Below the pieces are notes generated by a model. It was not told the DNA's origin. It ran no database searches and saw only the letters and a list, made by a program, of their open reading frames with translations. Source: Acidobacteriota bacterium (lineage in GTDB: Bacteria > Acidobacteriota > Vicinamibacteria > Vicinamibacterales > UBA2999). Taken from it: a DNA stretch of 24,468 bases. A program made the translations under genes and the position numbers. Shown one piece after another: positions 1 to 23,924 of the stretch. Every line of letters starts with the position of its first letter. Position 1 is the stretch's first letter. The DNA lies in contig JANNEJ010000801.1 in NCBI GenBank assembly GCA_031378585.1, forward strand, positions 1 through 24,468, in the 5' to 3' direction.

Positions 1-40
1 GTCGATGGTCTTCACGCGGCCTTCACCAGCGGCTTCGAGC
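1..40 (-). repeat. Displaced duplicate of the 3' end of the actD-like gene (direct repeat of 1802-1841); may extend beyond the window edge
   Basis: 1-27 identical to 1802-1828; 37/40 identity over 1-40 vs 1802-1841. Both encode LEAAGEGRVKTID on the minus strand; mismatches (28, 31, 34) are third-codon synonymous. The same frame upstream of 40 does not resemble ActD. Confidence 0.9.
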
Positions 41-1292: not shown

Positions 1293-1901
1293 ATGCGTGC
1301 GCTGCTCGATGTCAACGTCTGGGTCGCCCTCTTCGACGATGCCCATCAGTTCTCGGCGCGGGCCAATACCTTCATCGACGCCCGCGACACCAAGATCGCC
1401 AGTTGCCCGATGGTGGAGAACGCCGTGATCCGGGTGATGAGCCTGCCTTCCTACGGCCGCGCCGGCGGGCTGCCGATGCAACGGGTCCGCGCACGCCTCA
1501 GCGAAGCCTGCGGCGCGCTCGACCACCAGTTCTGGCCCGATGACATCACCCTGCGCGACGACGCCCGCGTCGACTTCTCGCGGGTCCAGGGCCACAACCA
1601 GATCACCGACCTGTACTTGCTCGCGCTGGCTGTGCACCATGGCGGACGGCTCGTCACGTTCGACCAGGCGATCTCGCTGCGCAGCGTGCGGGGCGCCACG
1701 CCGCGTCACCAGCCTCTTCTCGGACGTCGAAGGCACCTGTCGCGCCCGGAGTGCCGCTACGCGCTGGCTCGCCGACCAGTGTGCTCGGACGATCGCGATC
1801 AGTCGATGGTCTTCACGCGGCCTTCACCGGCCGCCTCGAGCGCCGTGGTCATGCCGGCCGTCAACCCGTCGGCCGGCCGCTGCACGCCGACCAGGATGTA
1901 G
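1293..1901 (+). CDS. vapC: Type II toxin, VapC PIN-domain ribonuclease with an atypical ~59-aa read-through tail
   Basis: LLDVNVW (Asp), MVENA (Glu), QITDLYLLALA (Asp), LVTFD (Asp) acidic tetrad; PIN domain ends near residue 143; the ORF continues to 1901, overlapping the convergent actD-like gene by 103 bp. Confidence 0.85.
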   Translation: MRALLDVNVWVALFDDAHQFSARANTFIDARDTKIASCPMVENAVIRVMSLPSYGRAGGLPMQRVRARLSEACGALDHQFWPDDITLRDDARVDFSRVQGHNQITDLYLLALAVHHGGRLVTFDQAISLRSVRGATPRHQPLLGRRRHLSRPECRYALARRPVCSDDRDQSMVFTRPSPAASSAVVMPAVNPSAGRCTPTRM

Positions 1902-2305
1902 CCGTCTGACACTTCCGGGTCGTAGAGCGGCGGCAGACGACGTGGCAACTTGGCGCTCACAAACAGCGTCAGCACCGTGGCCAGAATCGCGCCGAGCATC
2001 GTCATCTCGAACATCACGATCAGGTTCGGCCACGGCGCCACGATCGGCATGCCGCTGGTCTTGAGCGGCCACGATTGCTGCGTGAGGGTCGTCAACAAGT
2101 AGGCGCCGGTCAGTCCGATCACACCGCCCAGGCCTGCGATCCAGTGCATCCAGGTGGCGCTGTCCTTGTGGCTGAATTCGTACTCTTCGAATGGCTCCGA
2201 CGACATCACCTGGATGTCGGCGTTGGCCACGCCGGCCGCGCGCAGGCCGTGGACAGCCCGCTGCGCGGTCTCCGGGCTGTTGTAGAGGCCGTAGATCGCG
2301 GTCAT
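1799..2305 (-). CDS. ActD-like (DUF3341) two-TM membrane subunit of the second ACIII-like module
   Basis: 168 aa from ATG 2305 (ATGA overlap with the NrfD stop); IYGLYNSPE..., MSSEPFEE, two TM helices with MFEMTMLGAILATVLTLF, LYDPEVSDG. The longer track ORF (to 3595) is a shadow of the NrfD gene. Confidence 0.85.
   Translation of the reverse strand: MTAIYGLYNSPETAQRAVHGLRAAGVANADIQVMSSEPFEEYEFSHKDSATWMHWIAGLGGVIGLTGAYLLTTLTQQSWPLKTSGMPIVAPWPNLIVMFEMTMLGAILATVLTLFVSAKLPRRLPPLYDPEVSDGYILVGVQRPADGLTAGMTTALEAAGEGRVKTID
1802..1841 (-). repeat. Second copy of the 40-bp direct repeat (current 3' end of the actD-like gene)
   Basis: 37/40 identity with positions 1-40. Confidence 0.9.
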
Positions 2306-3660
2306 GGACGCGCCCTCCACAGGCCTTGCGCTTCCTCTTCGTCGTCCACGGGCACGGCCGGGTGCGGCTGGTTGCCCACCTTCATCTCCCAGATCGAGAT
2401 GATCGGCACGAACTTCGAGAACAGCATGTAGAGCAGCGCCATGGCCGCGAAGGTGGCGACCATGATGATGATCTCCGGGGTCTGCGGGCCGTAGGTGCCC
2501 CAGCTGTAGGGCAGCTGCTTGGTCGACAGCCCAGGCACGATGATGAGGAAGCGCTCGAGCCACATCCCCACGACTACACCGCACGAGACCATCACGATGC
2601 TGGGCAGCGTCCGCAGCCGACGGAACGACAGGATGCTGACCGGAATGATGAAGTTGCAGAACACCATGGTCCAGTAGAACGGCGCGAACGCGCCGCGCTG
2701 CGTGGCCCAGAACACCGCCATCTCGGACGGCTCGTTGCCGTACCACACGGTCAGCCGCTCCGAGAATACGAAGTAGCCCCACAGCAGGCTCATGAGCAGC
2801 AGCAGCTTGGCGAGGTTGTCGAAATGCAGCGGATGCAGATAGGCATGCAGTCGCAGCGTGCGCCGCAGCACGGCCATGGCGATGATGAGCGCGGCAATGC
2901 CGCTGAAGATCGCGCCGGCCACGAAGTAGGGCCCGAAGATCGTCGAATGCCACATCGGCACATGGGCCATCGAGAAGTCGAACGACACGATGGTGTGCAC
3001 CGACACCGCCACCGGGATGATGGCCACGGCCATGATCTGCATCGCCGTTTCGAGGCGGTGCCACTGCATGGTGGTGCCCTGCCAGCCCAGCGCCAACGCG
3101 CCGTAGATGCGCTGGCGCAGTCCGGTGGTGCGGTCGCGGATCAACGCGAAGTCGGGAATCATCGGCAGCAGCAGGAAGAGCAGGCTGCCGATCAGATAGG
3201 TGTTGATGGCGAAGAAGTCCCACACGAGCGGCGAGCGGAAGTTGGGCCACAGTTCGCGCGAGCTCGGGTAGGGCGCGACCCAGAAGAACAGCCACGGCTT
3301 GCCCAGGTGGACTATCGGGAAGATCGCGCCAATCATCAGCGCAAACGCGGTGATGACCTCGGCGCAGCGGGTGACCGGACGGCGCCAGCGCGCGTTGACC
3401 AGACGCAGGATCGCGGAGATCAACGTACCGGCGTGGCTGATGCCGATCCAGAACACGAAGTTGGTTTCGTAGAAGCCCCAGAACACTGGCCAGTTCACGC
3501 CGGCCACGCCCATTCCGTACCAGAGCTGATAGGCCCATGCGGCCGCGCCGCACAGCACGATCGAGGCAAGGATCAGCCCCACGCCGTAGAACCACACCGT
3601 GGTGTGGAGCAACGGCCGCACCAGGTCGTCGGCGAGCGGGTTATTGCGTGTCCGGTTCAT
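2302..3660 (-). CDS. NrfD/PsrC-family quinone-interacting membrane subunit, ActC-like (second module)
   Basis: 452 aa, polytopic; FWIGISHAGTLISAIL, RSPLVWDFFA, SVHTIVSFDF, WHSTIFGPYFVAGAIFSG, GMWLERFLII are ActC motifs. Confidence 0.92.
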   Translation of the reverse strand: MNRTRNNPLADDLVRPLLHTTVWFYGVGLILASIVLCGAAAWAYQLWYGMGVAGVNWPVFWGFYETNFVFWIGISHAGTLISAILRLVNARWRRPVTRCAEVITAFALMIGAIFPIVHLGKPWLFFWVAPYPSSRELWPNFRSPLVWDFFAINTYLIGSLLFLLLPMIPDFALIRDRTTGLRQRIYGALALGWQGTTMQWHRLETAMQIMAVAIIPVAVSVHTIVSFDFSMAHVPMWHSTIFGPYFVAGAIFSGIAALIIAMAVLRRTLRLHAYLHPLHFDNLAKLLLLMSLLWGYFVFSERLTVWYGNEPSEMAVFWATQRGAFAPFYWTMVFCNFIIPVSILSFRRLRTLPSIVMVSCGVVVGMWLERFLIIVPGLSTKQLPYSWGTYGPQTPEIIIMVATFAAMALLYMLFSKFVPIISIWEMKVGNQPHPAVPVDDEEEAQGLWRARP

Positions 3661-4348
3661 TCCACGACTGCCGTTGCAGGTACGTAACCTTCGGTTCGGT
3701 GCCCAGGTCTTCGAGCAGCTTGGTGCCCCGGGGCGAGTGAGTGAGCCGCGCCACGCGGCTCTCGTGATCGTTCAAGTCGCCGAAGATGATGGCGCCGGCC
3801 GGGCACGACTGCGCGCACGCCGGCTGCACGTCGGCCTCGGTCACTGATCGGTCCTCGGCCTTCGCCGTGGACTTACCCGACTTGATCCGCTGCACACAGA
3901 ACGTGCACTTCTCCATCACGCCCACTTCGCGCACCGACACATCGGGGTTCAACTGCAACTGCAGGGGCTTTTCCCACTGCGGGTTGAAGAAGTTGAAGAA
4001 GCGGACGTTGTAGGAACAGGCGTTGGCGCAGTAGCGCGTGCCGATGCAGCGGTTGTAGACCTGGGCATTCAGCCCTTCGTCGGTCTGATGGCTGGCATAA
4101 GTCGGGCACACGGCTTCGCACGGCGCGTTGTCGCAGTGCTGGCACATGACCGGCTTGAACTTCACTTTCACGTCTGGGAAGTCGCCCTCCCAGTAGCGTT
4201 CGACGCGCAGCCAGTGCATGGCGCGGCCGCGCGCCGCTTCGGTGGCGCCTGACGTCGGGATGTTGTTCTCGGCGTGGCAGGCGGTCACGCAGGCTTCGCA
4301 GCCCGTGCACTTGTCCAGATCCACGACCATGCCCCAGCGATGCGCCAT
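3641..4348 (-). CDS. 4Fe-4S dicluster-domain electron-transfer subunit (ActB2/QrcC/PsrB-like)
   Basis: 235 aa from ATG 4348 with a GAGGA RBS; CTGCEACVTAC, CQHCDNAPCEAVC, CIGTRYCANAC (one Cys replaced by Thr, 3Fe-4S type as in ActB), EKCTFC...PACAQSCP. Confidence 0.92.
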   Translation of the reverse strand: MAHRWGMVVDLDKCTGCEACVTACHAENNIPTSGATEAARGRAMHWLRVERYWEGDFPDVKVKFKPVMCQHCDNAPCEAVCPTYASHQTDEGLNAQVYNRCIGTRYCANACSYNVRFFNFFNPQWEKPLQLQLNPDVSVREVGVMEKCTFCVQRIKSGKSTAKAEDRSVTEADVQPACAQSCPAGAIIFGDLNDHESRVARLTHSPRGTKLLEDLGTEPKVTYLQRQSWNEPDTQ

Positions 4349-4350
4349 CA

Positions 4351-4512
4351 GTGGCCGGTCCTCTCGAGGTTCGTGGTGAATTCCGACGCGCGGCGCCCGA
4401 GCGCCAAGGCGCGACGAGCGAGAATACCAAGCCTGTATTTGAGCGAGGAGCAACGCCGGCGGTCGGGATGCCCCGCGAGGAAGTCGCCGCGAAGATCGGG
4501 AGGACCGGCCAC
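4351..4512. repeat. 162-bp palindromic intergenic element (MITE/REP-like) with 13-bp perfect terminal inverted repeats
   Basis: gtggccggtcctc (4351-4363) is the exact reverse complement of gaggaccggccac (4500-4512); 4370-4384 vs 4479-4493 pair at 12/15; inner ccgac-N3-cggcg / cgccg-N3-gtcgg (4383-4395 / 4454-4466); central aatac-N7-gtatt hairpin. Confidence 0.75.
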
Positions 4513-6693
4513 CTAGCCCCGTCCTTTGGTGTGGTCGGGCCGCTCGCGCGTGGCACCGGCAAACAGAATCAGGCTGCCGTCCGCGTCGGCCACCTTCGCG
4601 ATCTTCACGCGCGTGGCTGCCCAGGCGAGCTGCCCCGACGCGGCCTCCGCGACGGGCGCCAGAATGGCGAGCGGATTGGACCCGCGACCGCTGGCGTAGC
4701 GCGTGAACGTGCCGTGTCCCTGTCCGGCCGGCATCGCCACCGCACCTGGACCGATGCCTGGAGAGATCACCGCCGGCGCACGCACCGACCCGTACGCCGA
4801 GGCGATTTCGACGATGTCGCCGTCTGCGATGCCAAGCTCCTGGGCCGCGCGTCCGTTGATCTCGACCCAGCTGCTCCACATGGCCGTCGTCAGCGGATCG
4901 GGCAGCTCCTGCAGCCACGGCAGATGGGCCAGCGAGCCGTCGAGCAATGCCTGCGAGGCGAACGGGAAGAACTGAAACGGGTATTCGCTCGGGTTGCCGT
5001 CGAACTCTGGAGCCCGCCATGCCGTGGGTGCCGGCACGGCAGCCGCTCGACCAGGCGCGCCCAGCGCGGCAGCGAGGGGCGACGGCTCGGGCGCGAGCGG
5101 CGTCTGCAGCATCTCTTCGAAAGTCTGCCACGGCATCGCCGGGCTGAGCGGCTGCTTCAAGCGGCGGCCGGCATCCAGCAGCACGTCAGGCATGGACCGC
5201 GTGTCGTAGAGCGGACGCATGGCGGGCGGCGCAACGGTGGCGACATGCGCTGTCGCGCCTGATTCCGGCGCCGAGTCGACCCACGATTCCAGGAACGAGT
5301 GGTCGGGCAGGATCAGGTCGGCCAACACGCTCGTGTCGTCGATGAACGATCCGAAGCTGGCAATGAACGGCACCTGTCGCAGCCACTCGCCGGCCTTCCA
5401 CGCGGATGGCGCTGCAAACACCGGGTTCGCCTCGTCGAGCAGCAACAACTGCGGGGGGGCCGCGGCAAGAGCGTCGCGCAGTGAGCGTGGCGCGCGCGCG
5501 GGGGCCGCCGTCTGCGGCATGAACGACATGCCGCCTTCGGCGCCCACGCTGCCCACGAGCGCGTTCAGGGCGTTGACCGCCAGTGCCTGCGCGAGTCCGT
5601 TGGTGTGCGCCAGCGGAGCGCCGCCAATCACCGCCACGGCAGGGCCGTACTCCGCGAACTCCCGCGCCAGCCGCTCGATGCGCGCGACCGGCACGCCCGT
5701 CTCTTTGGCTGCGGCGTCGGGTGTGAACGCCGGAAGACCCGCCGACCAGCCGTCAACGAGCGCACCGGCACGGCCAGCGGCATCGCCAGGCCTGAGGCCG
5801 GCCTTCATGATGACGTGCGCCAGACCAAGCGCCAGCGCGCCTTCGGTGCCCGGCCGTACGGCCAGCCACTCGTCGGCGCTCGCGCCGGTCTGCGACATGC
5901 GCGGCTCGACCTGCACGAACTTCGGCCGCACGCCCCCACGGCCCTGACGCATCGCGCCATACGCTACGCTGTGGGCCAGGGGCGAGTTCCAGGTGCCCAG
6001 GAAGTCGGCGCCGAAGTTGACGAGATACCGCGTGCGCGCCAGATCAAAGGTCGGCAACTGGTGGCGGCCGAAGCTCAACTCGTTGGCATGACGCAGAACC
6101 GCGTCGTCGAAGATCTCGAACGTGAGGGGCGCAGGCGCGCCGAGCCGCCGCAGGAACTCCGACACGAGTTCGTGCCGGCGTCCACGGCGGGGTCGCGACA
6201 GGAACGCGATCTGCGCGGGACCCGCCGCAACCGCGGCGTCGAGACGCTCAACCAGCATCGCCAGCGCCTCGTCCCACGAGATCTCGGTGAACTGACCGCT
6301 GCCGCGCTCGCCGGTGCGTCGCTGCGGTGCCACGAGCCGGTCGGGGTGATAGGTGACCTGCACGCCAGCCTGGCCGCGCACGCACAGCCGGCCTTGGCTG
6401 ATTGGATGCGCCGCATCGCCTTCGAGCTTCCGCACGAGGCCCATGCGCGTCACGCCGGGCTGGCCCTTGCGGAACACCTCCGCATCGCCGTCCATGACCC
6501 GGGCCGACACGCCGCAGCCTGCCGCGCAGAGCGGACACACGCTGGGCTTCCACACGGCAATGCCCGGCAGGATTTCCTCGTCAGGAATGAACCGGACGAT
6601 CTGATTCTCGGGATTGCCACAACTGGCCAGCGCCGCGGTCGTGCCGGTGATGGCGGTGACCTTGATAAACCGCCGGCGGTCCATGGTGTTCAT
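4513..6693 (-). CDS. Molybdopterin-oxidoreductase-family subunit (ActB1/QrcB-like), Tat lipoprotein with N-terminal FS0 motif
   Basis: 726 aa; MDRRRFIK Tat motif and LASC lipobox; C53-x2-C56-x3-C60-x43-C104; VEPRMSQTGASADEWLAVRPGTEGALALG; C-terminal LPWLQELPDP...WVEIN...LGIADGDIVEI domain typical of the ActB/QrcB branch. Start could be 6684. Confidence 0.9.
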   Translation of the reverse strand: MNTMDRRRFIKVTAITGTTAALASCGNPENQIVRFIPDEEILPGIAVWKPSVCPLCAAGCGVSARVMDGDAEVFRKGQPGVTRMGLVRKLEGDAAHPISQGRLCVRGQAGVQVTYHPDRLVAPQRRTGERGSGQFTEISWDEALAMLVERLDAAVAAGPAQIAFLSRPRRGRRHELVSEFLRRLGAPAPLTFEIFDDAVLRHANELSFGRHQLPTFDLARTRYLVNFGADFLGTWNSPLAHSVAYGAMRQGRGGVRPKFVQVEPRMSQTGASADEWLAVRPGTEGALALGLAHVIMKAGLRPGDAAGRAGALVDGWSAGLPAFTPDAAAKETGVPVARIERLAREFAEYGPAVAVIGGAPLAHTNGLAQALAVNALNALVGSVGAEGGMSFMPQTAAPARAPRSLRDALAAAPPQLLLLDEANPVFAAPSAWKAGEWLRQVPFIASFGSFIDDTSVLADLILPDHSFLESWVDSAPESGATAHVATVAPPAMRPLYDTRSMPDVLLDAGRRLKQPLSPAMPWQTFEEMLQTPLAPEPSPLAAALGAPGRAAAVPAPTAWRAPEFDGNPSEYPFQFFPFASQALLDGSLAHLPWLQELPDPLTTAMWSSWVEINGRAAQELGIADGDIVEIASAYGSVRAPAVISPGIGPGAVAMPAGQGHGTFTRYASGRGSNPLAILAPVAEAASGQLAWAATRVKIAKVADADGSLILFAGATRERPDHTKGRG

Positions 6694-6709
6694 TTCGGGG
6701 TGGCCTGGC

Positions 6710-7336
6710 TCAGTAGTGGCACGTGAGGCAGTCGTTCGACGCCTGCTTCTGTTTGTGACAGTTCACGCAGAAGGCCATGTCCATGTCGACGGCCCGCACG
6801 GCCACGGTCTGCTCGGCCTGGTTGCCATGACACGTCGAACACGGGGTGCCGGCCTTGATGTGCGGGGCGTGCTCGAAGCGCACGTGGGCCTCGCGCGTGA
6901 ACCCATAGACGCGCTGCCACTGCAGGTCCAGCCCCTTCTCGTAGGTCGCGGTCAACTGCTTGATGAGCGGTGCGTCGGTGGCCACCTGCGAGTGGCAGAT
7001 CATGCAGGTGTTGATCGACGGAAACCCGGCGCGCGGGCTGCGTTCGACGCCCTCATGGCAGTCGGTGCACACCAGTTCCTTGTCGAGATGGATCTTGTGG
7101 CTGAACGGGAACGGCTGCTGCGGCTCTTTGCGCACGCCGAAGTGCGAGCGCACGCCCTCTCCGAAGGTGCGGTTCGCCGGCGTGTAGACCGAGGGCGTGC
7201 CCCAGCGCGACGGCTGGGCCATGCGTTCGGCCTGCACCTGCTCGGAGCGGCTGGACCAACCACTGCACCCGGCCGCCACGGCCGACAGCAACCCGACCAG
7301 AGCCCAGGCGAACCCGGAGCTCTTACTTCTGGACAC
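6710..7336 (-). CDS. Pentaheme cytochrome c (ActA-like), predicted lipoprotein
   Basis: 208 aa, GTG start overlapping the upstream stop; five CxxCH (CTDCH, CMICH, CSTCH, CVNCH, CLTCH); QPFPFSHKIH and FEHAPH ActA-type motifs; signal ending VAAG-C. Confidence 0.9.
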   Translation of the reverse strand: MSRSKSSGFAWALVGLLSAVAAGCSGWSSRSEQVQAERMAQPSRWGTPSVYTPANRTFGEGVRSHFGVRKEPQQPFPFSHKIHLDKELVCTDCHEGVERSPRAGFPSINTCMICHSQVATDAPLIKQLTATYEKGLDLQWQRVYGFTREAHVRFEHAPHIKAGTPCSTCHGNQAEQTVAVRAVDMDMAFCVNCHKQKQASNDCLTCHY

Positions 7337-7739
7337 TGCCGAGGCTGCGGACGTAGTTGACGAGATGCCAGGTGTCCTGGTCGGTCAGCTTGCCCTTGAG
7401 GCCCTTCATCAGGTACTCGGGTCCCGCGCCTTCTTGAATGACCACGAAGATCTCGCCGTCGCTGCCGCCGCGGTCCCAGGTGGCGTCGGCGAGGTTGGAC
7501 GGCTTCATGGTCTTGGGCGCCGACGGGCTGTCGCCTTTGCCGGTGGCACCATGACAAAAGCGGCAGTACTTCTGGAAGACCGCCTGCCCGGACGCCATCG
7601 ACGCGGCACTGGACGGCACTGGATTCTTCAGCTTGGCGGCCACGGCTCTGGATGTCGTCTGCTCGCCGGCGGCAGACAGACTCGTGGCCAACATCAGGCA
7701 CAGCACCGACAGACTTGCGACGAAACTTCGCTGACCCAT
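7323..7739 (-). CDS. Class I monoheme cytochrome c, probably soluble periplasmic
   Basis: 138 aa from ATG 7739 (GAGGAG upstream); Sec-type signal without an obvious lipobox; KNPVP...GQAVFQKYCRFCHG, SDGEIFVVIQEG, distal Met (LMKG), WHLVNYVRSL. Confidence 0.88.
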   Translation of the reverse strand: MGQRSFVASLSVLCLMLATSLSAAGEQTTSRAVAAKLKNPVPSSAASMASGQAVFQKYCRFCHGATGKGDSPSAPKTMKPSNLADATWDRGGSDGEIFVVIQEGAGPEYLMKGLKGKLTDQDTWHLVNYVRSLGSVQK

Positions 7740-10914: not shown

Positions 10915-11220
10915 CTAGCGCAGCGACGGCGGCATGTACGGCAGGCCGCGCGTACCGTAGTCCATGAACATCTCGGCAAACAGAATCGCCACGAAGAAGA
11001 AGCTCATGACCACCGTGATCTTCGTGAGGCGGCTGCTGTACTTCACGTGCATGAAATACAGAATGACGAGCGTGGCCTTGATGACCGCGATGGTCAGGGC
11101 CACGACCGGGTTCAGTGAGCCAAGATTGATGAAGGCGGCGCCAACCGTGATGGCGCTGAGCACCATCAGCATGCCAAAGATGCCGAAGTAGACCTTGAGG
11201 GGCGAGACGTGAACAGACAT
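10915..11220 (-). CDS. ctaF: Cytochrome c oxidase subunit IV (caa3-type)
   Basis: 101 aa, three TM helices, VALTIAVIKATLVILYFMHVKY motif; follows subunit III. Confidence 0.9.
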   Translation of the reverse strand: MSVHVSPLKVYFGIFGMLMVLSAITVGAAFINLGSLNPVVALTIAVIKATLVILYFMHVKYSSRLTKITVVMSFFFVAILFAEMFMDYGTRGLPYMPPSLR

Positions 11221-11236
11221 TGATCGACTCCCAGCT

Positions 11237-11346
11237 CAGGTGGCCGTTGGTCAGGCCACCTGGCCGCCCCGCGAAGCGGGGCAAAGAAACACTGCCCTAG
11301 CGAAGCCCCGCCGAACCGTGGTTGACATGTGGCGGCGCTTCGCTAG
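11237..11346. repeat. Three tandem hairpins between ctaE and ctaF (REP-like)
   Basis: caggtggcc-N8-ggccacctg (11237-11262); gccccgc-gaa-gcggggc (11266-11282); 16-bp arms with one mismatch (11297-11312 / 11331-11346) including the ctaE stop. Confidence 0.7.
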
Positions 11347-12126
11347 TTGTGGCGTTCCACGAGGTAGAGCAGCGGGAACAGGAAGATCCACACGATGTCG
11401 ACGAAGTGCCAATACAGGCCGGTCATCTCGACCGGTGCATGCCATTCGCTGTCGAAGCGGCCCTTGTGCGCCATCCACGTGATGATGAACAGAATGACGA
11501 TGCCCACGATCATGTGCAGCGCGTGCAGCCCGGTCATCACGAAGTAGAGGCTGAAGAAGAGCTGCGTGGTGCGCTGCAGTTCGTCTGGGCCCATCGTGGC
11601 GACGGCATGGCCCTCGCCGGCCGCTGGTGCTTCGTGGGCCTCTCCGGGAGCGGGCTCGTGCGCGAACTGGAAGCTCGCGCCCGGCACGTGATTATGAGCG
11701 AACTTGTCGGCGTACTCGTAGACCTTGATGCCGAGGAACACGCTGCCGAGCACAATCGTGGCCAGCAGCCAGTTGACGGTGGCCTTGCGCTGGTTGGTCT
11801 GCGAGGCCCGCACCGACAGTGCCATCGTCAGCGAACTGGCAATGAGCACCACGGTGTTGATCAAACCTGGCAGAATCTCAATCGACTTGCTGGCGGCGGC
11901 AAACGCCTCGTAGTACCACGAGCGGTAGAGTGTGTAGGCGAAGAACAGGCCGCCGAAGAACAGCACTTCGGTGAGCAGGAAGACCCACATGCCGAGCACG
12001 CCAGCTTCGCGCTGCTGCGACATCGTCTCGAAGTGATGCTGCAGCGCGGGGTGGTGCGCGTGGCTGTGACCAAGCGCAAGGCCGTGCCCATCCGCATGCG
12101 GGTGGGCGGCAGCGTGAACGTGGGCG

Positions 12127-12134
<8 letters not shown>
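11343..12134 (-). CDS. ctaE: Cytochrome c oxidase subunit III
   Basis: 263 aa, TTG start overlapping the ctaD stop; [53 protein letters not shown]. Confidence 0.95.
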
Positions 12135-13749
<1,615 letters not shown>

Positions 13750-13752
13750 GGC

Positions 13753-14766
13753 TTACCTTTGCGCGCCCTGCGCCGGCGCGGCTGGCGTACTGCTGGGGGT
13801 GGCCGCCGCCGGCACGAGCGCCGGTGCGCTGGTGGGCGCTTGCGGCGAGAGCGACTTGATGTGCTCGATGAGGGCGGCCAGGCCCTCTTCGCTGATGAGA
13901 CCCTGGAACGTGGGCATGAGCGGCGCGAAGCCCTTCACGACCTTGGACTGCGAGTTGAGAATCGATTCCCGCAGGTAGCCTTCGTCCACCATCACGGTCG
14001 TGCCGTCGGCCAGCTCCATGGGCTTGCCCATGATGTCCTTCAGCGACGGCCCGCGACCCTGGCCGTTGTCGAGATGGCAGGTGGTGCACGCAAGATCGTT
14101 GAAGAGCTTGCCGCCGCGTTCGGCCATCGTGCCCTCGGTGCCGCCGCCGGCGAGCCACGCCTGGTACTGCGGCGGCTCCATGACGACGACTTCGCCAATC
14201 ATGCCCGAGTGCTTGGTGCCGCAGTACTCCGCGCAGAAGATCCGGTAGCGGCCCGGCTTCGTGGCCGTGAACCACAGCGGTTGGTACCGGCCTGGGATGG
14301 CGTCGATCTTGGTACGGAAGGCCGGAAAGTACAGGTCATGCAGTACGTCTTCCGAGGTGACCAGGACTTTGATGGGCCGGCCCATCGGCACATGCAGCTC
14401 GTTGATTTCGCGCTGGCCGCCGGTGTGCTGGAACTTCCACATCCACTGCTCGCCGACCGCGTAGATCTGCATCGTCTCGGCTGGGGGCACGCGCATCTCG
14501 TAGAAGAGCTTGGCGCCCCAGCCGAACATCACCATGGAGATGATGGTCGGGATGATCGACCAGGCCAGCTCGAGCGGCAGCGACCCCTCGATATGGGCCC
14601 CGACTTCCTCGGCGTGTTTGCGTCGATACCGAATGCCGAAAAACACCACGGCAATCGCAACGGCCACCGTGAAGAAGGCCGACACGGCGACGATGAAGAG
14701 ATAGAGCGCGTCGACCTCCGAAGCGAAGGAGGAAGCGGCCTCTGGAAACAGCGAAATACCACCCAT
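13753..14766 (-). CDS. coxB: Cytochrome c oxidase subunit II with fused C-terminal cytochrome c (caa3-type)
   Basis: 337 aa; DVLHDL and CAEYCGTKHSGM CuA ligands; CTTCH heme motif with distal Met (PLMPTF). Confidence 0.96.
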   Translation of the reverse strand: MGGISLFPEAASSFASEVDALYLFIVAVSAFFTVAVAIAVVFFGIRYRRKHAEEVGAHIEGSLPLELAWSIIPTIISMVMFGWGAKLFYEMRVPPAETMQIYAVGEQWMWKFQHTGGQREINELHVPMGRPIKVLVTSEDVLHDLYFPAFRTKIDAIPGRYQPLWFTATKPGRYRIFCAEYCGTKHSGMIGEVVVMEPPQYQAWLAGGGTEGTMAERGGKLFNDLACTTCHLDNGQGRGPSLKDIMGKPMELADGTTVMVDEGYLRESILNSQSKVVKGFAPLMPTFQGLISEEGLAALIEHIKSLSPQAPTSAPALVPAAATPSSTPAAPAQGAQR

Positions 14767-14772
14767 ATGAAC

Positions 14773-15627
14773 TCAGTGCCCGGCTGGGGCGCGGCTATCG
14801 CGCCGAAGCGAAATCGCTATGAACCCGAACAGCACCACCATCGTGACGGCACCGCCCAGCCGCACGGCGTTCATCGCCGCGAAGCTGTAGGAACCCTTTG
14901 CCGGCTCGTAGTGATAGCAGTAGAGCAGCACCTGATCGACCACCGACCCGATTCGGCCTTCAGACGACTCCATCATCGCGAACTTCAAATCGCGCGGCGG
15001 GTACTCGATCCCGAAGAGATACCGCGCGAGCCGTCCGTCGGGAGTGGCGACGATGACCCCACTGGCGTGGGCGAACTGTTGGGTCTCGTCGTCCCACGCG
15101 AAGTGGAATCCCGCCGTGTCGGTCGCGCGCCGGATGTTGGCGTCGTCGCCGGTCAGGAAGTGCCAGCCCTGGTCAGAACCCGGCCGCGCATACCGGTCCA
15201 GATAGGTGGCTTTCTTCGCGGCCGCCATGACCGGCGTTTCGCGCGAGTCGATGCTGATGGCCACAACGTCGAAATCGGTGCCGACCGTCTGGTCGAGCAC
15301 GCCAATCGCGCTCACCAGTCCGTTGAGAATCTGGTTACAGAGCATCGGACATTCGTAATACACGAACGCCAGCACGACCGGCCGCTTGCCAAAGTAGTCG
15401 CCCAGCTTCACCGGCTGGCCGTGCTCGTCGCGGAAGGCCGCGTCGAGCGGCAGCACGGCATCGAGCTTCTGCTCGAAGCGCACGTTCTGCAGGGCTGAAG
15501 GCGTCGTGTCCGACGTGGGGCCGGGCGCTGGCCTCAGCCCAGGGGCATTGCCCTGTGCGCTCGCCGACACGGCTCCCGCCACGGCCAGTGCCGCGAGCGT
15601 CAGAGCGTATCGCCGGGTGATGTTCAT
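14773..15627 (-). CDS. SCO1/SenC family copper chaperone
   Basis: 284 aa; signal peptide, YYECPMLCNQIL (CxxxC), QFAHASG (His), C-terminal TM helix; directly upstream of coxB. Confidence 0.92.
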   Translation of the reverse strand: MNITRRYALTLAALAVAGAVSASAQGNAPGLRPAPGPTSDTTPSALQNVRFEQKLDAVLPLDAAFRDEHGQPVKLGDYFGKRPVVLAFVYYECPMLCNQILNGLVSAIGVLDQTVGTDFDVVAISIDSRETPVMAAAKKATYLDRYARPGSDQGWHFLTGDDANIRRATDTAGFHFAWDDETQQFAHASGVIVATPDGRLARYLFGIEYPPRDLKFAMMESSEGRIGSVVDQVLLYCYHYEPAKGSYSFAAMNAVRLGGAVTMVVLFGFIAISLRRDSRAPAGH

Positions 15628-15639
15628 GATGTCGGTGCG

Positions 15640-16110
15640 CTACCGTGCCGTGGTGGTACGGCCGCCTGATGAATCCTGCACGACCATCGACGCCGTCGAC
15701 CCACTGCCTGCACGCGCCGGCAGACCCCGCTGCAACGTGAGCGCCATGGCCCGTTCGATCGGGATGTGCACCACGCCGTTGGCCTTGTCCAGCCAGCCGT
15801 AGCTCGTGAGCGCGCCGCGTTGTGCGGTCTTCAGTTCGTAGATGTCCTTGAACGGCTGCGTCTGCAGCCGGGGTGCCGGCGGGTCCTGCGACAGGCCCTG
15901 CGCGAGCGGGAACGTGCGCGCGGCAGTGTCGACGGAGGTGGCGCGGGTGCCCAGGAACATGAAGATGCCGTAGACGAGCCCGGCCGAGAGCGCCATCGCC
16001 ACCGCCAGCCACAAGGCAAAGCGATAGCCGACGCCCGGCTCGATGTCCGTGTGCTCGTAGGCCGCTCCTGCGGGGGTGGGTCCGTATTCGTTGTCTGCGT
16101 CGTTCGACAT
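15640..16110 (-). CDS. actG: ACIII accessory subunit ActG
   Basis: 156 aa, single TM helix, PRLQ...YGWLD...VHIPIERAM motif; located after actF. Confidence 0.75.
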   Translation of the reverse strand: MSNDADNEYGPTPAGAAYEHTDIEPGVGYRFALWLAVAMALSAGLVYGIFMFLGTRATSVDTAARTFPLAQGLSQDPPAPRLQTQPFKDIYELKTAQRGALTSYGWLDKANGVVHIPIERAMALTLQRGLPARAGSGSTASMVVQDSSGGRTTTAR

Positions 16111-16150
16111 ATCAGTCCTGCGCTTCGTCCTTCGTTGGGGCGTTCTGGTC

Positions 16151-16185
16151 GAGCCCCAGTCCCCAGCCCCTAGCCCCCAGACCCC
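16151..16185. repeat. Five tandem degenerate heptamers, G-tract rich on the coding strand
   Basis: gagcccc-agtcccc-agcccct-agccccc-agacccc; minus strand reads GGGG TCT GGGGG CTA GGGG CT GGGG ACT GGGG. Confidence 0.8.
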
Positions 16186-16188
16186 GAG

Positions 16189-17373
16189 CTAGTGCGTGTG
16201 GTGCGTCAACGCCTTGGCCAGTCCTTCGTCGTGGAGCGGCAGCAGCGGTCGCCCCTTCAACTGGGCGGCAAACAGCATCACGAACACGCCGCCAAGCGCG
16301 ATGGGCAGCGCGATGTCGATGAGACCGACCGAGAGGCCTTCGTGATGGAACTCGGGCGCGACGTGCCAGTAGTAGTCGACCAATCGGACGGCGACCATCC
16401 AGGACGCAATCAGACTCAACCGGCGCCAGTCGCGCTTGATGTCGCGTGAGAGCAGCAACACGTAAGGCAGCACGAAGTGGAGCGCCACCAGTGCCCAGCC
16501 GACAAACTGCCAGCCGTTCTGCGCGCGCACCCAGTAGTGCGGAATCTCTTCCTGCGTGTTGGCCGAGTAGATGATGAGGAACTGCGAGAACGACAGGTAG
16601 GCCCACAGCATGATGAAGGCGAAGAGCAGCTTGGCCAGGTCATGGAAATGCGAGGGGTTGATGACCTTGTCGAACGGGGCGTCCTTCGACAGCATCACCA
16701 GCACGGCAATCGAGAAACCCAGCGCCGACAGCGCCTGGCCCACGATGTAGAGCAGTCCCCACATGGTCGAGAACCAGTGCGGGTTGATCGACATGGTCCA
16801 GTCGACGACCGCAAATGTCACGGTGAGGCCGAACACCAGCAAGCCGCCGCCCGACAAGGCCGCCATCTTCTTTGCCATGGCCGGGTCGCCCGTGCGGTCT
16901 TGTTCGGCCGACCACTTGCTCAGCAGCGTGGCCATGCCAGTCCACACGGCGAAGTAGAACACCTGGCGCGCCAGGAAGAACGGCGTGTTCAGGTAGGCCA
17001 CCTTGTCCCGGATCACGGGGTCGCTCGCGGCCGCCTCGGCGTCGGTCCAGTGGTAGAGGTGGTCCATACCGAAGACGATGGGAATGAAGAGCACCGCCAT
17101 GAACGGCAGCGTTCGGGTCGACGCTTCGAGCACGCGACGGATCACCAGGCCCCAGGCGCCGCCCGTGAGGTGCTGCACCATGAGCAGCGCCAGGCTGCCG
17201 AGACCCACGCCAGTCCAGAATACCCACGCCACCAGATACGCCTCGTAGAAGCGGTCTGCGCCGGACATGGTGAAGCCCACGCCCGTCAACACCGCGCCAA
17301 CGACGGCGGCGATCATGGCCTTGTTCTGAACGCCCGAGACGCTCGCGGGCGCGCTGTCTGTTTCCGCAGTCAT
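16189..17373 (-). CDS. actF: ACIII subunit ActF (NrfD-like membrane protein)
   Basis: 394 aa from ATG 17373; LMVQHLTGGAWG, YLNTPFFLAR, DWTMSINPHWFSTMWG, HFHDLAKLLFAF, YLSFSQFLIIY. Confidence 0.92.
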   Translation of the reverse strand: MTAETDSAPASVSGVQNKAMIAAVVGAVLTGVGFTMSGADRFYEAYLVAWVFWTGVGLGSLALLMVQHLTGGAWGLVIRRVLEASTRTLPFMAVLFIPIVFGMDHLYHWTDAEAAASDPVIRDKVAYLNTPFFLARQVFYFAVWTGMATLLSKWSAEQDRTGDPAMAKKMAALSGGGLLVFGLTVTFAVVDWTMSINPHWFSTMWGLLYIVGQALSALGFSIAVLVMLSKDAPFDKVINPSHFHDLAKLLFAFIMLWAYLSFSQFLIIYSANTQEEIPHYWVRAQNGWQFVGWALVALHFVLPYVLLLSRDIKRDWRRLSLIASWMVAVRLVDYYWHVAPEFHHEGLSVGLIDIALPIALGGVFVMLFAAQLKGRPLLPLHDEGLAKALTHHTH

Positions 17374-17375
17374 GT

Positions 17376-18005
17376 CTAGTGTTCCGCCTTCTTCGCAGGC
17401 TCGGTTCCGGCCGCGGCGAGCGAGGCCGCCGGAGCATCGAGCCGGCCGCGGTCGGCCGCGGGCACGTCGTCGACCGTGGCGTTCTGGCTGAGCTGCAGGG
17501 CACGCACGTAGGCGGCAATCAGCCAACGGTCGCGCGGAGGAATCTGATCGGCGTAACCCTGCATCGCGCCGAAGCCGTTGGTGACGACGTCGTAGAAGTA
17601 GCCCGGGGCAATCTGCCGCAGCCGGTCCTGGTGATAGGTCGCGGCCTGCCGGAGCCCGCGCTGCACCACCATGCCCTTGCCGTCGCCGAGTTGACCGTGG
17701 CAGGGCGTGCAGTAAATGGTGAATCGTTCCCGCCCGCGGTCCAGGTCGCTGGCCGTGACGGCAAACGGGAAGGTCGACGCGAGTTCGCCGTCGACCTTAC
17801 CGGTGTAGAAGTGGTCGTCGTCGCGCAGCTGGCCGCGGGCCACCGTGCCGGCCGGCAGGTTGCGCGAGGCGCGGCCGTCGGCAAACGAGGCGTTCGCCTC
17901 GTAGACCTCGTAGTTCGGGCCGTTGTGCATATCCTGACGGCAACCGGCAAGCAGGGCCGACGCCGCGACGAGCGCACACGTGAGCAGACGTCCATTATTC
18001 CGCAA
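17376..18005 (-). CDS. actE: ACIII subunit ActE, monoheme cytochrome c lipoprotein
   Basis: About 209 aa from TTG 18005 overlapping the actD end; LLAG-CRQDMH lipobox; CTPCH; GFGAM distal Met; DRWLIAAYVRALQ. Confidence 0.92.
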   Translation of the reverse strand: MRNNGRLLTCALVAASALLAGCRQDMHNGPNYEVYEANASFADGRASRNLPAGTVARGQLRDDDHFYTGKVDGELASTFPFAVTASDLDRGRERFTIYCTPCHGQLGDGKGMVVQRGLRQAATYHQDRLRQIAPGYFYDVVTNGFGAMQGYADQIPPRDRWLIAAYVRALQLSQNATVDDVPAADRGRLDAPAASLAAAGTEPAKKAEH

Positions 18006-18543
18006 CGTCGTACACTCCCTTCGCGCCAAGACCCTGCAGGAACGCGCCCGTCTGCTCCACGGCGAAGTGCGCATCTTCGGCCTCGATGACGAGAAAGAAC
18101 TTGTCGGACGACGCCAGCGAGAACCGCTCCACGTTGAACACGGGGTGATAAGGCTGCGGCAGGCCGTTCAGCGCAATCATCCCGATGGCCGCCGTGAGCG
18201 CCGAGAAGAGAATCGTCAGCTCGTACGACGGAATGACGAACGCCGGCCACGTGCCGAGCGGGCGGCCACCGACGTTCATCGGATACTCGATGGCCGACGC
18301 CCAGTACTGCAGCGTGAAGCCGGTGGCCATGCCACAGAACGCCATGAAGAGCACGAGCTTCGGCAGGATCGTCCGCTTCTTGTGGATGATGTCGTTCAGT
18401 TCTTCGATCGGGATCGGCGTGTACGCCTCCATCCTGGAGTAACCCGCGGCTACGGCCTTGATCGATGCGTCGACGATGCCTTGCGCCGAGTCGAACTCGG
18501 CCATCAGCCCGTAGAGCCCCGTCTTGTCTGTGTTCGCCTGCAT
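17995..18543 (-). CDS. actD: ACIII subunit ActD (DUF3341)
   Basis: 182 aa; YGLMAEF, EAYTPIP, VGGRPLGTWPAFVIPSYELTILF, LPQPYHPVF, SDKFFLVIE. Confidence 0.93.
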   Translation of the reverse strand: MQANTDKTGLYGLMAEFDSAQGIVDASIKAVAAGYSRMEAYTPIPIEELNDIIHKKRTILPKLVLFMAFCGMATGFTLQYWASAIEYPMNVGGRPLGTWPAFVIPSYELTILFSALTAAIGMIALNGLPQPYHPVFNVERFSLASSDKFFLVIEAEDAHFAVEQTGAFLQGLGAKGVYDVAE

Positions 18544-18557
18544 GACTTGAATCCCGC

Positions 18558-23060: not shown

Positions 23061-23078
23061 CGTTCTGAATCCGTCCTC

Positions 23079-23115
23079 CGCCTTCGCGCGCTCCGGTTCC
23101 TGACGCGCTACGGCG
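23079..23115. repeat. REP-like imperfect hairpin between actA and actB
   Basis: cgcc-ttc-gcgcg-N13-cgcgc-tac-ggcg in a 103-bp spacer. Confidence 0.5.
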
Positions 23116-23163
23116 TGACTTCGGCCGGTAGCCTTCTCGTTCTGTGGCGTTGTCCCGTCGCCG

Positions 23164-23814: not shown

Positions 23815-23872
23815 GAGCCGTCGTTTCAGCAGTCGCCGGACTGCTTCCTCCCCGCGGCGTGCGGGCACGCGT

Positions 23873-23890
23873 TTGTGAAAACTTTCGCAA
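23873..23890. promoter_or_regulatory. Putative Rex operator
   Basis: TTGTGAA-AACT-TTCGCAA vs the Rex consensus TTGTGAA-N4-TTCACAA (one mismatch), immediately downstream of the candidate -10. Confidence 0.6.
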
Positions 23891-23895
23891 GCAGA

Positions 23896-23924
23896 CTTGT
23901 ACCAGAAACCCAAACAAAGGACAA
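23896..23924 (-). promoter_or_regulatory. Candidate sigma70 promoter of the act-cox operon
   Basis: Minus strand TTGTCC-N17-TACAAG with TGn before the -10, in the AT-rich spacer upstream of actA. Confidence 0.45.

What the first reader, a model, noticed from the sequence alone, without database searches (positions are those of the whole stretch)
1799..7739. Second ACIII/Qrc-like module of different design next to a canonical ACIII-caa3 operon
Seen: cytochrome c - pentaheme A - B1 - B2 - C - D, mostly tightly coupled, about 3 kb downstream of the actA-G/sco/cox operon. Unlike the canonical copy, B is split, B1 has an ordinary Tat signal and keeps FS0 cysteines, A is a predicted lipoprotein, the monoheme partner looks soluble, and ActE-lipoprotein, ActF and ActG are absent. 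The ActC quinol-site residues (His in HAGT, Asp in WD, His/Asp in SVH...FDF) and the ActB-type 3Fe-4S motif (CIGTRYC) are retained. Established: split-B ACIII-like clusters and QrcABCD of sulfate reducers exist, but QrcABCD has no ActD. Inference: an intermediate between substrate-converting CISM enzymes and ACIII, possibly a three-way junction linking quinone, cytochrome c and an unknown periplasmic substrate, or running as a cytochrome c:quinone reductase under different conditions. I know of no biochemical characterisation of this exact composition but cannot search the literature.
Basis: partly seen in the sequence, partly recalled or inferred. Interest (0 to 1): 0.8.

Follow-up and report, generated by a model that had tools for sequence, protein, structure and literature searches.

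The report
Reduced second alternative complex III operon
Next to its standard ACIII-caa3 respiratory operon, this acidobacterium has a conserved six-gene cut-down relative of alternative complex III, a design already catalogued from genomes but never studied biochemically.

Summary
On the minus strand, 1799-7739 encodes a monohaem cytochrome c, a pentahaem ActA-like protein, a split ActB (B1 and B2), an ActC-type membrane subunit and ActD. All six genes are intact and under purifying selection (dN/dS 0.07-0.38).

- **ACIII, not Qrc:** C scores 300-324 bits against the four solved ActC chains and keeps the quinol-site residues. D matches Pfam ActD. B2 matches the ActB C-terminal domain best. 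All four Qrc models fail their cut-offs, and QrcD gives no match at all.
- **B1:** it keeps the FS0 cysteines and passes the Pfam molybdoenzyme thresholds. The presumed Mo-ligand position is not conserved: D/S/G in close homologues, and never Cys in 122 representative relatives.
- **Not unusual:** the same six-gene module is conserved in Vicinamibacterales. ActF-less split-B relatives form an Acidobacteriota clade. FS0-bearing split-B clusters also occur in Woeseiaceae (with cox, ActE and an ActF-like gene), Nitrospirales and Chloroflexota. The literature already describes split-B, FS0-bearing and ActF/G-less ACIII clusters.

Most likely it is a menaquinol:cytochrome c oxidoreductase with one membrane proton path. 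The "three-way junction" and reverse-direction ideas remain untested. This scan's notes on it are all on this same window.

The parts
7323..7739 (-). Monohaem class I cytochrome c (138 aa), predicted soluble periplasmic partner. Its stop overlaps the start of A by 14 nt.
   Evidence: PF13442 and PF00034. One CxxCH and a cleavable signal without a lipobox. Orthologues in the six-gene clade show the same signal type.
6710..7336 (-). Pentahaem ActA-like cytochrome c (208 aa), predicted lipoprotein.
   Evidence: Five CxxCH and lipobox AAGC. PF14522 and PF14537. QrcA model 61 bits against a cut-off of 180. The lipobox Cys is seen in the six-gene clade; outside it, motif matches are rare and look incidental.
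4513..6693 (-). ActB1-type molybdoenzyme-fold subunit (726 aa). Carries a Tat signal plus lipobox and the FS0 [4Fe-4S] cysteines. Probably has no Mo cofactor.
   Evidence: PF04879, PF00384 and PF01568. QrcB model 299 bits against a cut-off of 440. C25, C53, C56, C60 and C104 are invariant, while position 196 is D/S/G. AF2 model pLDDT 88, with TM-scores of 0.63-0.75 to both ArrA/PsrA and ActB.
4349..4512 (-). 164-nt B1-B2 spacer that folds into one long hairpin. An insertion specific to this genome.
   Evidence: MFE -99.3 kcal/mol, z = -5.1. Orthologous loci L017 and L018 have a 3-nt gap here.
3641..4348 (-). ActB2-type iron-sulfur subunit (235 aa, no signal peptide). Cysteine pattern for three [4Fe-4S] clusters and one [3Fe-4S] cluster.
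   Evidence: 15 Cys in groups of 4+4+3+4, including CIGTRYC. Scores 222-257 bits to the ActB C-terminal domains, against 131 for ArrB and 106 for PsrB. QrcC model 253 bits against a cut-off of 400.
2302..3660 (-). ActC-type NrfD-family quinol-binding membrane subunit (452 aa).
   Evidence: 300-324 bits to the four solved ActC chains, no PsrC match. H118, D148, S220, D228 and R370 conserved. No QrcD match. Falls in an Acidobacteriota clade of ActF-less modules.
1799..2305 (-). ActD (168 aa, two predicted TM helices).
   Evidence: PF11821 at 6.8e-27. Weak matches to solved ActD chains. E100 aligns with Glu122 of R. marinus ActD. Two hydrophobic segments.
10915..23913 (-). Canonical actA-B(fused)-C-D-E-F-(G)-sco-coxII-I-III-IV operon, used as the internal comparison.
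   Evidence: ORFs. The TAT-variant extension TIGR04519 is found on ActB only. ActC scores 499-628 bits to solved ActC chains.

Best explanation
The module encodes a reduced member of the alternative complex III family: ActA, split ActB1 and ActB2, ActC and ActD, plus a dedicated soluble monohaem cytochrome c.

**Assembly (inferred)**
- B1 is exported folded by Tat and probably carries the signal-less B2 with it, as in other CISM alpha/beta pairs.
- B1 and A are held at the membrane by lipid anchors.
- They dock on the ActC-ActD membrane pair.

**Mechanism (inferred from solved ACIII structures)**
- Menaquinol is oxidised at the periplasm-side site of C (H118, D148, D228).
- Electrons pass to the [3Fe-4S] cluster of B2, along the five haems of A, and on to the co-encoded cytochrome c.
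- That cytochrome delivers them to a terminal oxidase or another periplasmic reductase.
- Without ActF the complex has only the ActC proton path. It would conserve less energy per electron than the canonical copy.

**B1:** most likely a scaffold without Mo cofactor that still binds FS0. FS0 would be either a structural relic or one more member of the FeS2-4 wire, whose role is unknown even in canonical ACIII.

**Shown here:** gene content, conservation, family placement and conserved residues.

**Inferred:** direction of electron flow, the partner, and the absence of a pterin cofactor.
For: - **Subunit matches to ACIII:** C 300-324 bits to solved ActC. B2 222-257 bits to the ActB C-terminal domain. 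D matches Pfam ActD and keeps the coupling Glu.
- **Catalytic residues:** quinol-site and gating residues are conserved (PMC5928083).
- **Conserved module:** the same module is found in relatives at 60-96% B1 identity.
- **Selection:** dN/dS is 0.07-0.38 for all six genes.
- **Link to ordinary ACIII:** FS0-bearing split-B clusters in Woeseiaceae sit directly after coxII-I-III and carry ActE and an ActF-like gene. This ties the B1 type to an oxidase-linked ACIII context.
- **Dedicated partner:** the cytochrome c gene overlaps the A gene by 14 nt, which suggests co-production.
- **B1 ligand position:** variable, inside a motif shared with ActB.
- **Weak molybdoenzyme signal:** B1 orthologues score 60-78 bits on PF00384. 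Other high-scoring PF00384 proteins in the same genomes score 130-254 bits.
Against: - No experiment exists on any ActF-less or FS0-bearing ACIII, so the direction of electron flow rests on analogy.
- In many genomes the module is a stand-alone operon with no oxidase within 9-10 kb.
- FS0 is conserved in about 110 of 122 relatives. That is more than expected for a pure relic.
- From my own knowledge, arsenite oxidase shows that a Mo-bisPGD site can work without a protein ligand. A variable ligand position therefore does not prove absence of the cofactor.
- No characterised ACIII sequences were in my tree. Placement relative to them rests on HMMER scores only.
- Evidence of expression is weak.
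Confidence: 0.6

Rival explanations
1. It runs the Qrc way. The complex takes electrons from the reduced periplasmic cytochrome c and reduces menaquinone, possibly driven by proton-motive force, as proposed for ACIII-like clusters of iron oxidisers.
For: - The best NCBIfam models for A, B1 and B2 are QrcA, QrcB and QrcC.
- Like Qrc, it has a single NrfD-type subunit and no ActF.
- JGI names several homologues 'menaquinone reductase, molybdopterin-binding-like subunit'.
- Many copies have no adjacent oxidase.
- Reverse flow has been proposed for FeOB actAB1B2CDEF clusters (PMC4643136).
Against: - All four Qrc models fail their cut-offs, and QrcD gives no match at E <= 0.01 anywhere in the genome.
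- C is ActC-type and comes with ActD, which Qrc lacks.
- The partner is a class I monohaem cytochrome, not a tetrahaem c3. From general knowledge such cytochromes usually have high potentials, which would make menaquinone reduction uphill.
- QrcB has no cofactors at all (PMC13059093), whereas B1 keeps FS0.
- The closest oxidase-linked relatives (Woeseiaceae) look like ordinary ACIII.
Confidence: 0.15
2. B1 is a working Mo/W-bisPGD enzyme. The complex then links the quinone pool, and possibly the haem chain, to an unknown periplasmic substrate converted at B1.
For: - B1 passes the Pfam thresholds for all three molybdoenzyme domains, which canonical ActB does not.
- Its best solved-structure sequence matches are ArrA and PsrA.
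- FS0 and many residues in domains II-IV, including GQGH, are invariant.
- The AF2 model has the complete fold.
- MoaA, MoeA and MobA-like genes are present in these genomes.
Against: - The ligand position is D 89, S 16, G 14 among 119 close homologues. It is never Cys among 122 representatives.
- The segment carries a motif shared with the window's canonical ActB, and ACIII ActB is cofactor-less by structure (PMC5928083).
- The PF00384 score is two- to three-fold lower than for other PF00384 proteins in the same genomes.
- No TorD/NarJ-type chaperone or accessory gene lies in any neighbourhood examined.
- MoeA occurs in 51 of 57 genomes with a B1-like gene, against 258 of 301 overall, so there is no enrichment.
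Confidence: 0.1
3. It is a branched junction without Mo. FS0 extends the FeS2-4 wire to the B1 surface, where a second redox protein docks. Quinol electrons can then leave either by the haem chain or by the iron-sulfur chain.
For: [quoted passage not shown]
- FS0 cysteines are conserved in about 110 of 122 relatives, in both split and fused forms.
Against: - No candidate second partner is conserved next to the module.
- From my own knowledge, the FS0-equivalent cluster N7 of complex I is retained without taking part in electron transfer.
- FS0 was lost several times in the family without loss of the rest of the protein.
Confidence: 0.1

Closest known systems
Canonical alternative complex III (ActABCDEF(G)) of Rhodothermus marinus, Flavobacterium johnsoniae, Roseiflexus and Chloroflexus
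   Same: - Pentahaem ActA.
- A molybdoenzyme-like B1 part, and a B2 part with three [4Fe-4S] clusters and one [3Fe-4S] cluster.
- ActC with the same quinol-site and gating residues.
- ActD with the coupling Glu.
   Different: - B is split into two genes.
- B1 keeps FS0, has a plain Tat signal with a lipobox, and lacks the TIGR04519 extension.
- A is a lipoprotein rather than anchored by a helix.
- The monohaem partner looks soluble and is encoded first in the operon.
- There is no ActF or ActG.
- C scores 300-324 bits to solved ActC, against 499-628 bits for the canonical copy in the same window.
Split-ActB ACIII-like clusters described from genomes: actAB1B2CDEF of iron oxidisers (PMC4643136), actAB1B2CDE of Nitrospirales lacking ActF/G (PMC12342949), ActABCD clusters of MBNT15 (PMC9386147)
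   Same: - Split B1/B2.
- The FS0 motif in B1.
- ActC plus ActD.
- Loss of ActF and ActG in some lineages.
- A Nitrospirales locus (L062) turned up in my own B1 scan at 40% identity with the order A-B1-B2-C-D-E.
   Different: - Here the monohaem cytochrome gene lies upstream of A, not after D, and lacks a lipobox.
- A is lipidated.
- The C subunit belongs to a separate Acidobacteriota clade.
- None of these clusters has been characterised biochemically.
QrcABCD menaquinone reductase of sulfate reducers
   Same: - A multihaem cytochrome.
- A molybdoenzyme-like subunit.
- A four-cluster subunit with a [3Fe-4S] cluster.
- A single NrfD-type subunit.
- The best NCBIfam models for A, B1 and B2 are the Qrc ones.
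   Different: - All scores fall below the curated cut-offs, and QrcD does not match at all.
- Qrc has no ActD.
- QrcB has no cofactor (PMC13059093), whereas B1 has the FS0 cysteines.
- QrcA is described as hexahaem (PMC8076601); A has five haem motifs.
Psr/Phs/Arr-type complex iron-sulfur molybdoenzymes
   Same: - The B1 fold and FS0.
- The Arg after the fourth FS0 Cys, and the GQGH-type motif.
- Tat export.
- The alpha/beta/NrfD-type layout.
   Different: - No conserved Mo ligand.
- B2 has a three-Cys [3Fe-4S] group.
- The membrane subunit is ActC-type (aligned over residues 12-427 with the ten-helix ActC) and comes with ActD.
- A pentahaem cytochrome is added.
- No maturation chaperone gene lies nearby.

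Membership tests
Alternative complex III (ACIII) | ActC-type NrfD subunit with the P-side quinol site (His139, Asp169, Asp253 in R. marinus numbering) and Arg395 | tested here: met
   300-324 bits to 6lod_C, 6f0k_C, 8k9e_C and 6btm_C. H118, D148, D228 and R370 are present.
Alternative complex III (ACIII) | ActD subunit, described as found only in ACIII, with the conserved membrane Glu | tested here: met
   PF11821 at 94.6 bits against a cut-off of 25.7. E100 aligns with Glu122 of 6f0k_D.
Alternative complex III (ACIII) | Pentahaem ActA | tested here: met
   Five CxxCH motifs, spaced like the window's own ActA for the first four. PF14522 matched.
Alternative complex III (ACIII) | ActB with a B2 part carrying three [4Fe-4S] clusters and one [3Fe-4S] cluster | tested here: met
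   Cys groups of 4+4+3+4, with CIGTRYC matching CVGTRYC of the canonical ActB. 222-257 bits to ActB C-terminal domains. The split into two genes is an accepted variation (PMC9386147, PMC4643136).
Alternative complex III (ACIII) | B1 part without any prosthetic group | tested here: not met
   FS0 cysteines are present and invariant. The absence of a pterin cofactor cannot be tested with these tools.
Alternative complex III (ACIII) | ActE, a lipid-anchored monohaem cytochrome encoded after ActD | tested here: not met
   The only monohaem cytochrome is upstream of A and has no lipobox.
Alternative complex III (ACIII) | ActF, a second NrfD-like membrane subunit | tested here: not met
   No ActF-like ORF lies in or beside the module, nor in any of the Acidobacteriota relatives within 9 kb.
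Alternative complex III (ACIII) | Quinol:cytochrome c/HiPIP oxidoreductase activity | not testable with these tools
   Needs a purified complex or membranes.
QrcABCD | QrcD-type membrane subunit (NF041784, cut-off 570 bits) | tested here: not met
   No match at E <= 0.01 anywhere in the genome.
QrcABCD | QrcA, QrcB and QrcC at equivalog level (cut-offs 180, 440 and 400 bits) | tested here: not met
   61, 299 and 253 bits.
QrcABCD | Four subunits, no ActD, and a QrcB without cofactors | tested here: not met
   ActD is present. B1 has the FS0 cysteines. The Qrc description is from PMC13059093 and PMC8076601.
Catalytic Mo/W-bisPGD enzymes of the Psr/Phs/Arr type | Conserved Mo ligand (Cys, Sec, Ser or Asp) after the GSPN-type segment | tested here: not met
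   The Cys of ArrA and PsrA aligns with D196. That position is D/S/G in 119 close homologues. It is D/G/A/E/N/S/H and others, never Cys, in 122 representatives.
Catalytic Mo/W-bisPGD enzymes of the Psr/Phs/Arr type | FS0 cluster and the three Pfam domains of the catalytic subunit | tested here: met
   PF04879, PF00384 and PF01568 are all over their thresholds. FS0 cysteines are invariant.
Catalytic Mo/W-bisPGD enzymes of the Psr/Phs/Arr type | Bound Mo or W pterin cofactor | not testable with these tools
   The fold search does not separate ActB from true enzymes (TM-scores 0.63-0.75 for both). The MoeA co-occurrence test was uninformative.

The most novel reading that the evidence does not exclude
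The conserved FS0 makes the otherwise unexplained FeS2-4 chain of ACIII a working five-cluster wire. It would end in B1 at a second redox site: either a docking site for another periplasmic carrier, or a pterin site with no protein ligand, as in arsenite oxidase. The ActF-less complex would then be a true three-way junction between menaquinol, cytochrome c and a third partner.
Probability: 0.1. Interest if true: 0.75.

Novelty: new member of a known kind. Interest (0 to 1): 0.3.

Why it matters
No ACIII lacking ActF, or carrying FS0, has ever been purified. Two questions about ACIII are still open: what the FeS2-4 chain does, and whether ActF is needed for proton pumping (PMC5928083, PMC13059093).

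Here one genome carries a natural minimal ActAB1B2CD complex beside a full ACIII-caa3 operon. The minimal form is conserved across Vicinamibacterales and Terriglobia. That gives a ready-made comparison for both questions.

The work also shows that automatic names attached to these genes should not be taken as evidence of sulfate-reducer-type or selenium metabolism in Acidobacteriota. The names seen were "menaquinone reductase QrcB-like" and "anaerobic selenocysteine-containing dehydrogenase". As a genomic observation the finding is ordinary, because variation of this kind has been catalogued since 2010-2013.

Tried and rejected
- **Expression:** no RNA run was listed for the whole module. Four RNA-labelled runs gave only short contigs at 85-96% identity over parts of D, C, B2, B1 and A. 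This suggests that relatives are transcribed, but DNA carry-over and other organisms cannot be excluded.
- **Cofactor supply:** MoaA, MoeA and MobA-like genes and several true molybdoenzymes are present in the family's genomes, so their presence says nothing about B1. MoeA is found in 51 of 57 genomes with a B1-like gene, against 258 of 301 overall, which is uninformative. The B1-like set at E < 1e-50 may also include other enzymes.
- **Qrc reference sequences:** four 'Deltaproteobacteria' MAGs had no QrcB above the cut-off. No Qrc sequences could be placed in a tree, so Qrc membership was judged from the NCBIfam cut-offs only.
- **Fold search:** the B1 model matches ArrA, FdhH, PsrA and ActB about equally. 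It cannot tell a cofactor-bearing protein from an empty one.
- **Papers:** Refojo 2013 (BBA 1827:1378) and Venceslau 2010 (JBC) are not held. Their content is cited only through papers that quote them.
- **Terminal acceptors:** cbb3 is over its cut-off in 2 of 4 complete relatives, and cytochrome b is present in all. These are branched respiratory chains, and no specific partner could be assigned.
- **Rejected, decay:** dN/dS is 0.07-0.38 for all six genes.
- **Rejected, chance ORFs in GC-rich DNA:** every gene has strong family matches and conserved orthologues.

Full report
**What is there**

The window is a whole 24.5-kb contig of a 78%-complete metagenome-assembled genome. Source names on close homologues place it in Acidobacteriota, Vicinamibacterales.

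All relevant genes are on the minus strand. A canonical ACIII-caa3 operon occupies 23913-10915. It runs actA, fused actB, actC, actD, actE, actF, a putative actG, sco, then coxII (with a cytochrome c domain), coxI, coxIII and coxIV. A penicillin-amidase gene and a methyltransferase gene follow.

Then comes the module of the finding:
- cytochrome c, 7323-7739
- A, 6710-7336
- B1, 4513-6693
- B2, 3641-4348
- C, 2302-3660
- D, 1799-2305

Four of the five junctions are overlaps or a 16-nt gap. The B1-B2 junction is a 164-nt spacer.

**Check of the observation**

Every stated feature was found.
- The cytochrome has one CxxCH and a cleavable signal without a lipobox.
- A has five CxxCH and the lipobox AAGC.
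- B1 has RRRFIK and the FS0 cysteines C53-x2-C56-x3-C60...C104.
- B2 has 15 cysteines in groups of 4+4+3+4, the three-Cys group being CIGTRYC.
- Pfam gives cytochrome c, multihaem c7/c3, the three molybdoenzyme domains, four-cluster ferredoxin, NrfD and ActD.
- C aligns with R. marinus ActC so that H118, D148, S220, D228 and R370 fall on His139, Asp169, Ser245, Asp253 and Arg395 (residue roles from PMC5928083).
- E100 of D falls on Glu122 of ActD.

- B1's Tat signal ends in the lipobox LASC. Its Cys is invariant in 119 close homologues and in 16 diverse relatives, so B1 is a predicted Tat lipoprotein.
- The lipobox of A is seen in the six-gene clade; outside it, motif matches are rare and look incidental.
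- The B1-B2 spacer is an insertion that folds into one hairpin. It is missing from orthologues at 96% and 83% identity.

**Is it real and maintained?**

Orthologous six-gene modules occur at 60-96% B1 identity in many Vicinamibacterales assemblies. Some sit behind caa3 as here, others elsewhere as stand-alone operons.

Nei-Gojobori dN/dS against three orthologous loci is 0.07-0.38 for each of the six genes. For comparison, coxI gives 0.01-0.08. The module is not decaying.

In a sample of 301 Acidobacteriota genomes, orthologues above 60% identity were found in 7 of the 9 other genomes of the window's own family. Beyond that family, identity drops to about 40%.

Evidence for expression is weak. 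No RNA run holds the sequence well. Metatranscriptome contigs cover only short pieces at 85-96% identity.

**Which family?**

| Subunit | Result |
|---|---|
| C | 300-324 bits to the four solved ActC chains, 33-65 bits to ActF, no PsrC match |
| Canonical ActC, same window | 499-628 bits to solved ActC |
| B2 | 222-257 bits to ActB C-terminal domains; ArrB 131, PsrB 106 |
| D | Pfam ActD |
| QrcA / QrcB / QrcC models | 61 / 299 / 253 bits, against cut-offs of 180 / 440 / 400 |
| QrcD model | no match in the whole genome |

So C is a divergent ActC, and the complex is of the ACIII type, not Qrc.

B1 is the odd subunit.
- It passes all three Pfam molybdoenzyme thresholds. Canonical ActB shows none of them at E <= 0.001.
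- Its best solved-structure sequence matches are ArrA and PsrA rather than ActB.
- An AF2 model (pLDDT 88) has the full fold. It matches true enzymes and ActB about equally.

**Does B1 look catalytic?**

- The Mo-ligating Cys of ArrA and PsrA aligns with D196.
- Among 119 homologues at or above 57% identity, that position is D 89, S 16 and G 14, although its neighbours are nearly invariant.
- Among 122 representatives of 50%-identity clusters it is D, G, A, E, N, S, H and others, and never Cys. The FS0 cysteines are kept in about 110 of those 122.
- The local segment follows a motif ([FY]E.[FL]....[LV][RK].A....FG) that the window's own canonical ActB also shows. ACIII ActB is cofactor-less by structure (PMC5928083).
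- B1 orthologues score 60-78 bits on PF00384. Other high-scoring PF00384 proteins in the same genomes score 130-254 bits.
- No TorD/NarJ-type chaperone or other accessory gene lies near the module in any neighbourhood with Pfam annotation.

Taken together, this favours a Mo-less scaffold that still binds FS0. It is not proof. Arsenite oxidase has no protein ligand to Mo (my own knowledge), and the Moco pathway is present.

**How unusual is the design?**

A scan of species-representative genomes with a B1 profile gave at least 590 confirmed loci. The best 80 fall into these classes:

| Group | Gene order |
|---|---|
| Vicinamibacterales | cytc-A-B1-B2-C-D |
| Terriglobia / Acidobacteriaceae | A-B1-B2-C-D, no cytochrome |
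| A second Vicinamibacterales type, about 40% identity | A-B1-B2-C-D-E |
| Woeseiaceae and other Gammaproteobacteria | coxII-I-III-A-B1-B2-C-D-E plus an ActF-like gene |
| Nitrospirales | A-B1-B2-C-D-E |
| Chloroflexota | A-B1-B2-C-D-E |

In a quick ML tree of C rooted on ActF:
- All ActF-less Acidobacteriota modules form one clade (SH-aLRT 99), with the six-gene group inside it (100).
- The canonical acidobacterial ActC (100) is sister to the Woeseiaceae split-B ActC (98).

A rough FastTree of B1 places canonical ActB among fused FS0-bearing forms and needs several FS0 losses. FS0 retention is therefore the common state in this wider family, and its loss is a recurrent derived state. The tallies include one unpublished genome (G024).

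**Literature**

- Split actB1/actB2 with the FS0 motif is described for iron oxidisers (PMC4643136).
- ActABCD clusters are reported in MBNT15 (PMC9386147).
- QrcB is described as lacking all cofactors (PMC13059093).
- The role of FeS2-4 in ACIII is stated to be elusive, with a possible second electron exit (PMC5928083).
- I found no biochemical work on an ActF-less or FS0-bearing ACIII, and no description of the variant with an upstream soluble cytochrome and a lipidated ActA.

**Most likely mechanism**

By analogy with the solved ACIII structures:
1. Menaquinol is oxidised at the P-side site of C.
2. Electrons enter the [3Fe-4S] cluster of B2.
3. They run along the five haems of A and reduce the co-encoded soluble cytochrome c.
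4. That cytochrome feeds an oxidase or another periplasmic reductase.

Relatives carry caa3, cytochrome b and, in some cases, cbb3, so no single acceptor can be named. Without ActF only the ActC proton path remains.

The direction of flow, the absence of a pterin cofactor and the role of FS0 are inferences. The rival readings are reverse Qrc-like operation, a working Mo site, and a branched FeS exit. They are kept at 0.1-0.15 each.

**Verdict**

This is a further lineage-specific member of the already catalogued 'variations on the ACIII theme'. Its main use is as a natural minimal ACIII beside a full one.

Noticed in passing
window 4349-4512: The 164-nt B1-B2 spacer folds into one long hairpin (-99.3 kcal/mol, z = -5.1). 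Orthologues at 96% and 83% identity lack it: B2 starts there 3 nt after the B1 stop. It looks like a small palindromic insertion inside an operon.
   Followed up: partly
window 1-40 and 1802-1841: The last 40 nt of actD recur at 93% identity at the very start of the contig. The two copies flank about 1.8 kb that holds a PIN-domain (VapC-like) gene at 1293-1901. This could be an integration with a duplicated target. It could also be an assembly effect at a contig end, caused by strain variants with and without the islet.
   Followed up: partly
window 19974-23060 (canonical ActB): The canonical ActB has 14 cysteines in its B2 part where the module's B2 has 15. The last ligand position reads Ser (TACEAASPSQ) instead of Cys (PACAQSCPAG).
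   Followed up: partly
G134 contig C3, about 388-449 kb (same family as the window): About 60 kb of one contig holds four respiratory units: a module-2 orthologue, the canonical ACIII (actC at 405.7 kb), a cbb3-type ccoN over its cut-off (436.6 kb) and a third ActC-like gene (448.2 kb, 52% identity). It looks like a respiratory island.
   Followed up: no
L067, L068, L072, L078, L079, L086, L092: Vicinamibacterales assemblies also carry a second, about 40%-identical split-B type with the order A-B1-B2-C-D-cytochrome c. The order therefore holds at least three ACIII-type designs.
   Followed up: partly
L054-L056, L059, L060, L064, L069, L073, L080: In Woeseiaceae and other Gammaproteobacteria MAGs, coxII-coxI-coxIII lie directly upstream of a split-B ACIII cluster. 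Its B1 carries at least the fourth FS0 cysteine, which was part of the search pattern. The cluster also has ActE and an ActF-like gene. This is the reverse gene order to the act-then-cox arrangement of the window.
   Followed up: no
homologues P0018-P0120: JGI names these B1 proteins either 'anaerobic selenocysteine-containing dehydrogenase' or 'menaquinone reductase, molybdopterin-binding-like subunit'. Neither name fits the evidence here. The 'qrcABCD' reported as transcribed under anoxia in a sulfate-reducing Terriglobia MAG (PMC10564751) might belong to this family. I could not check that.
   Followed up: no
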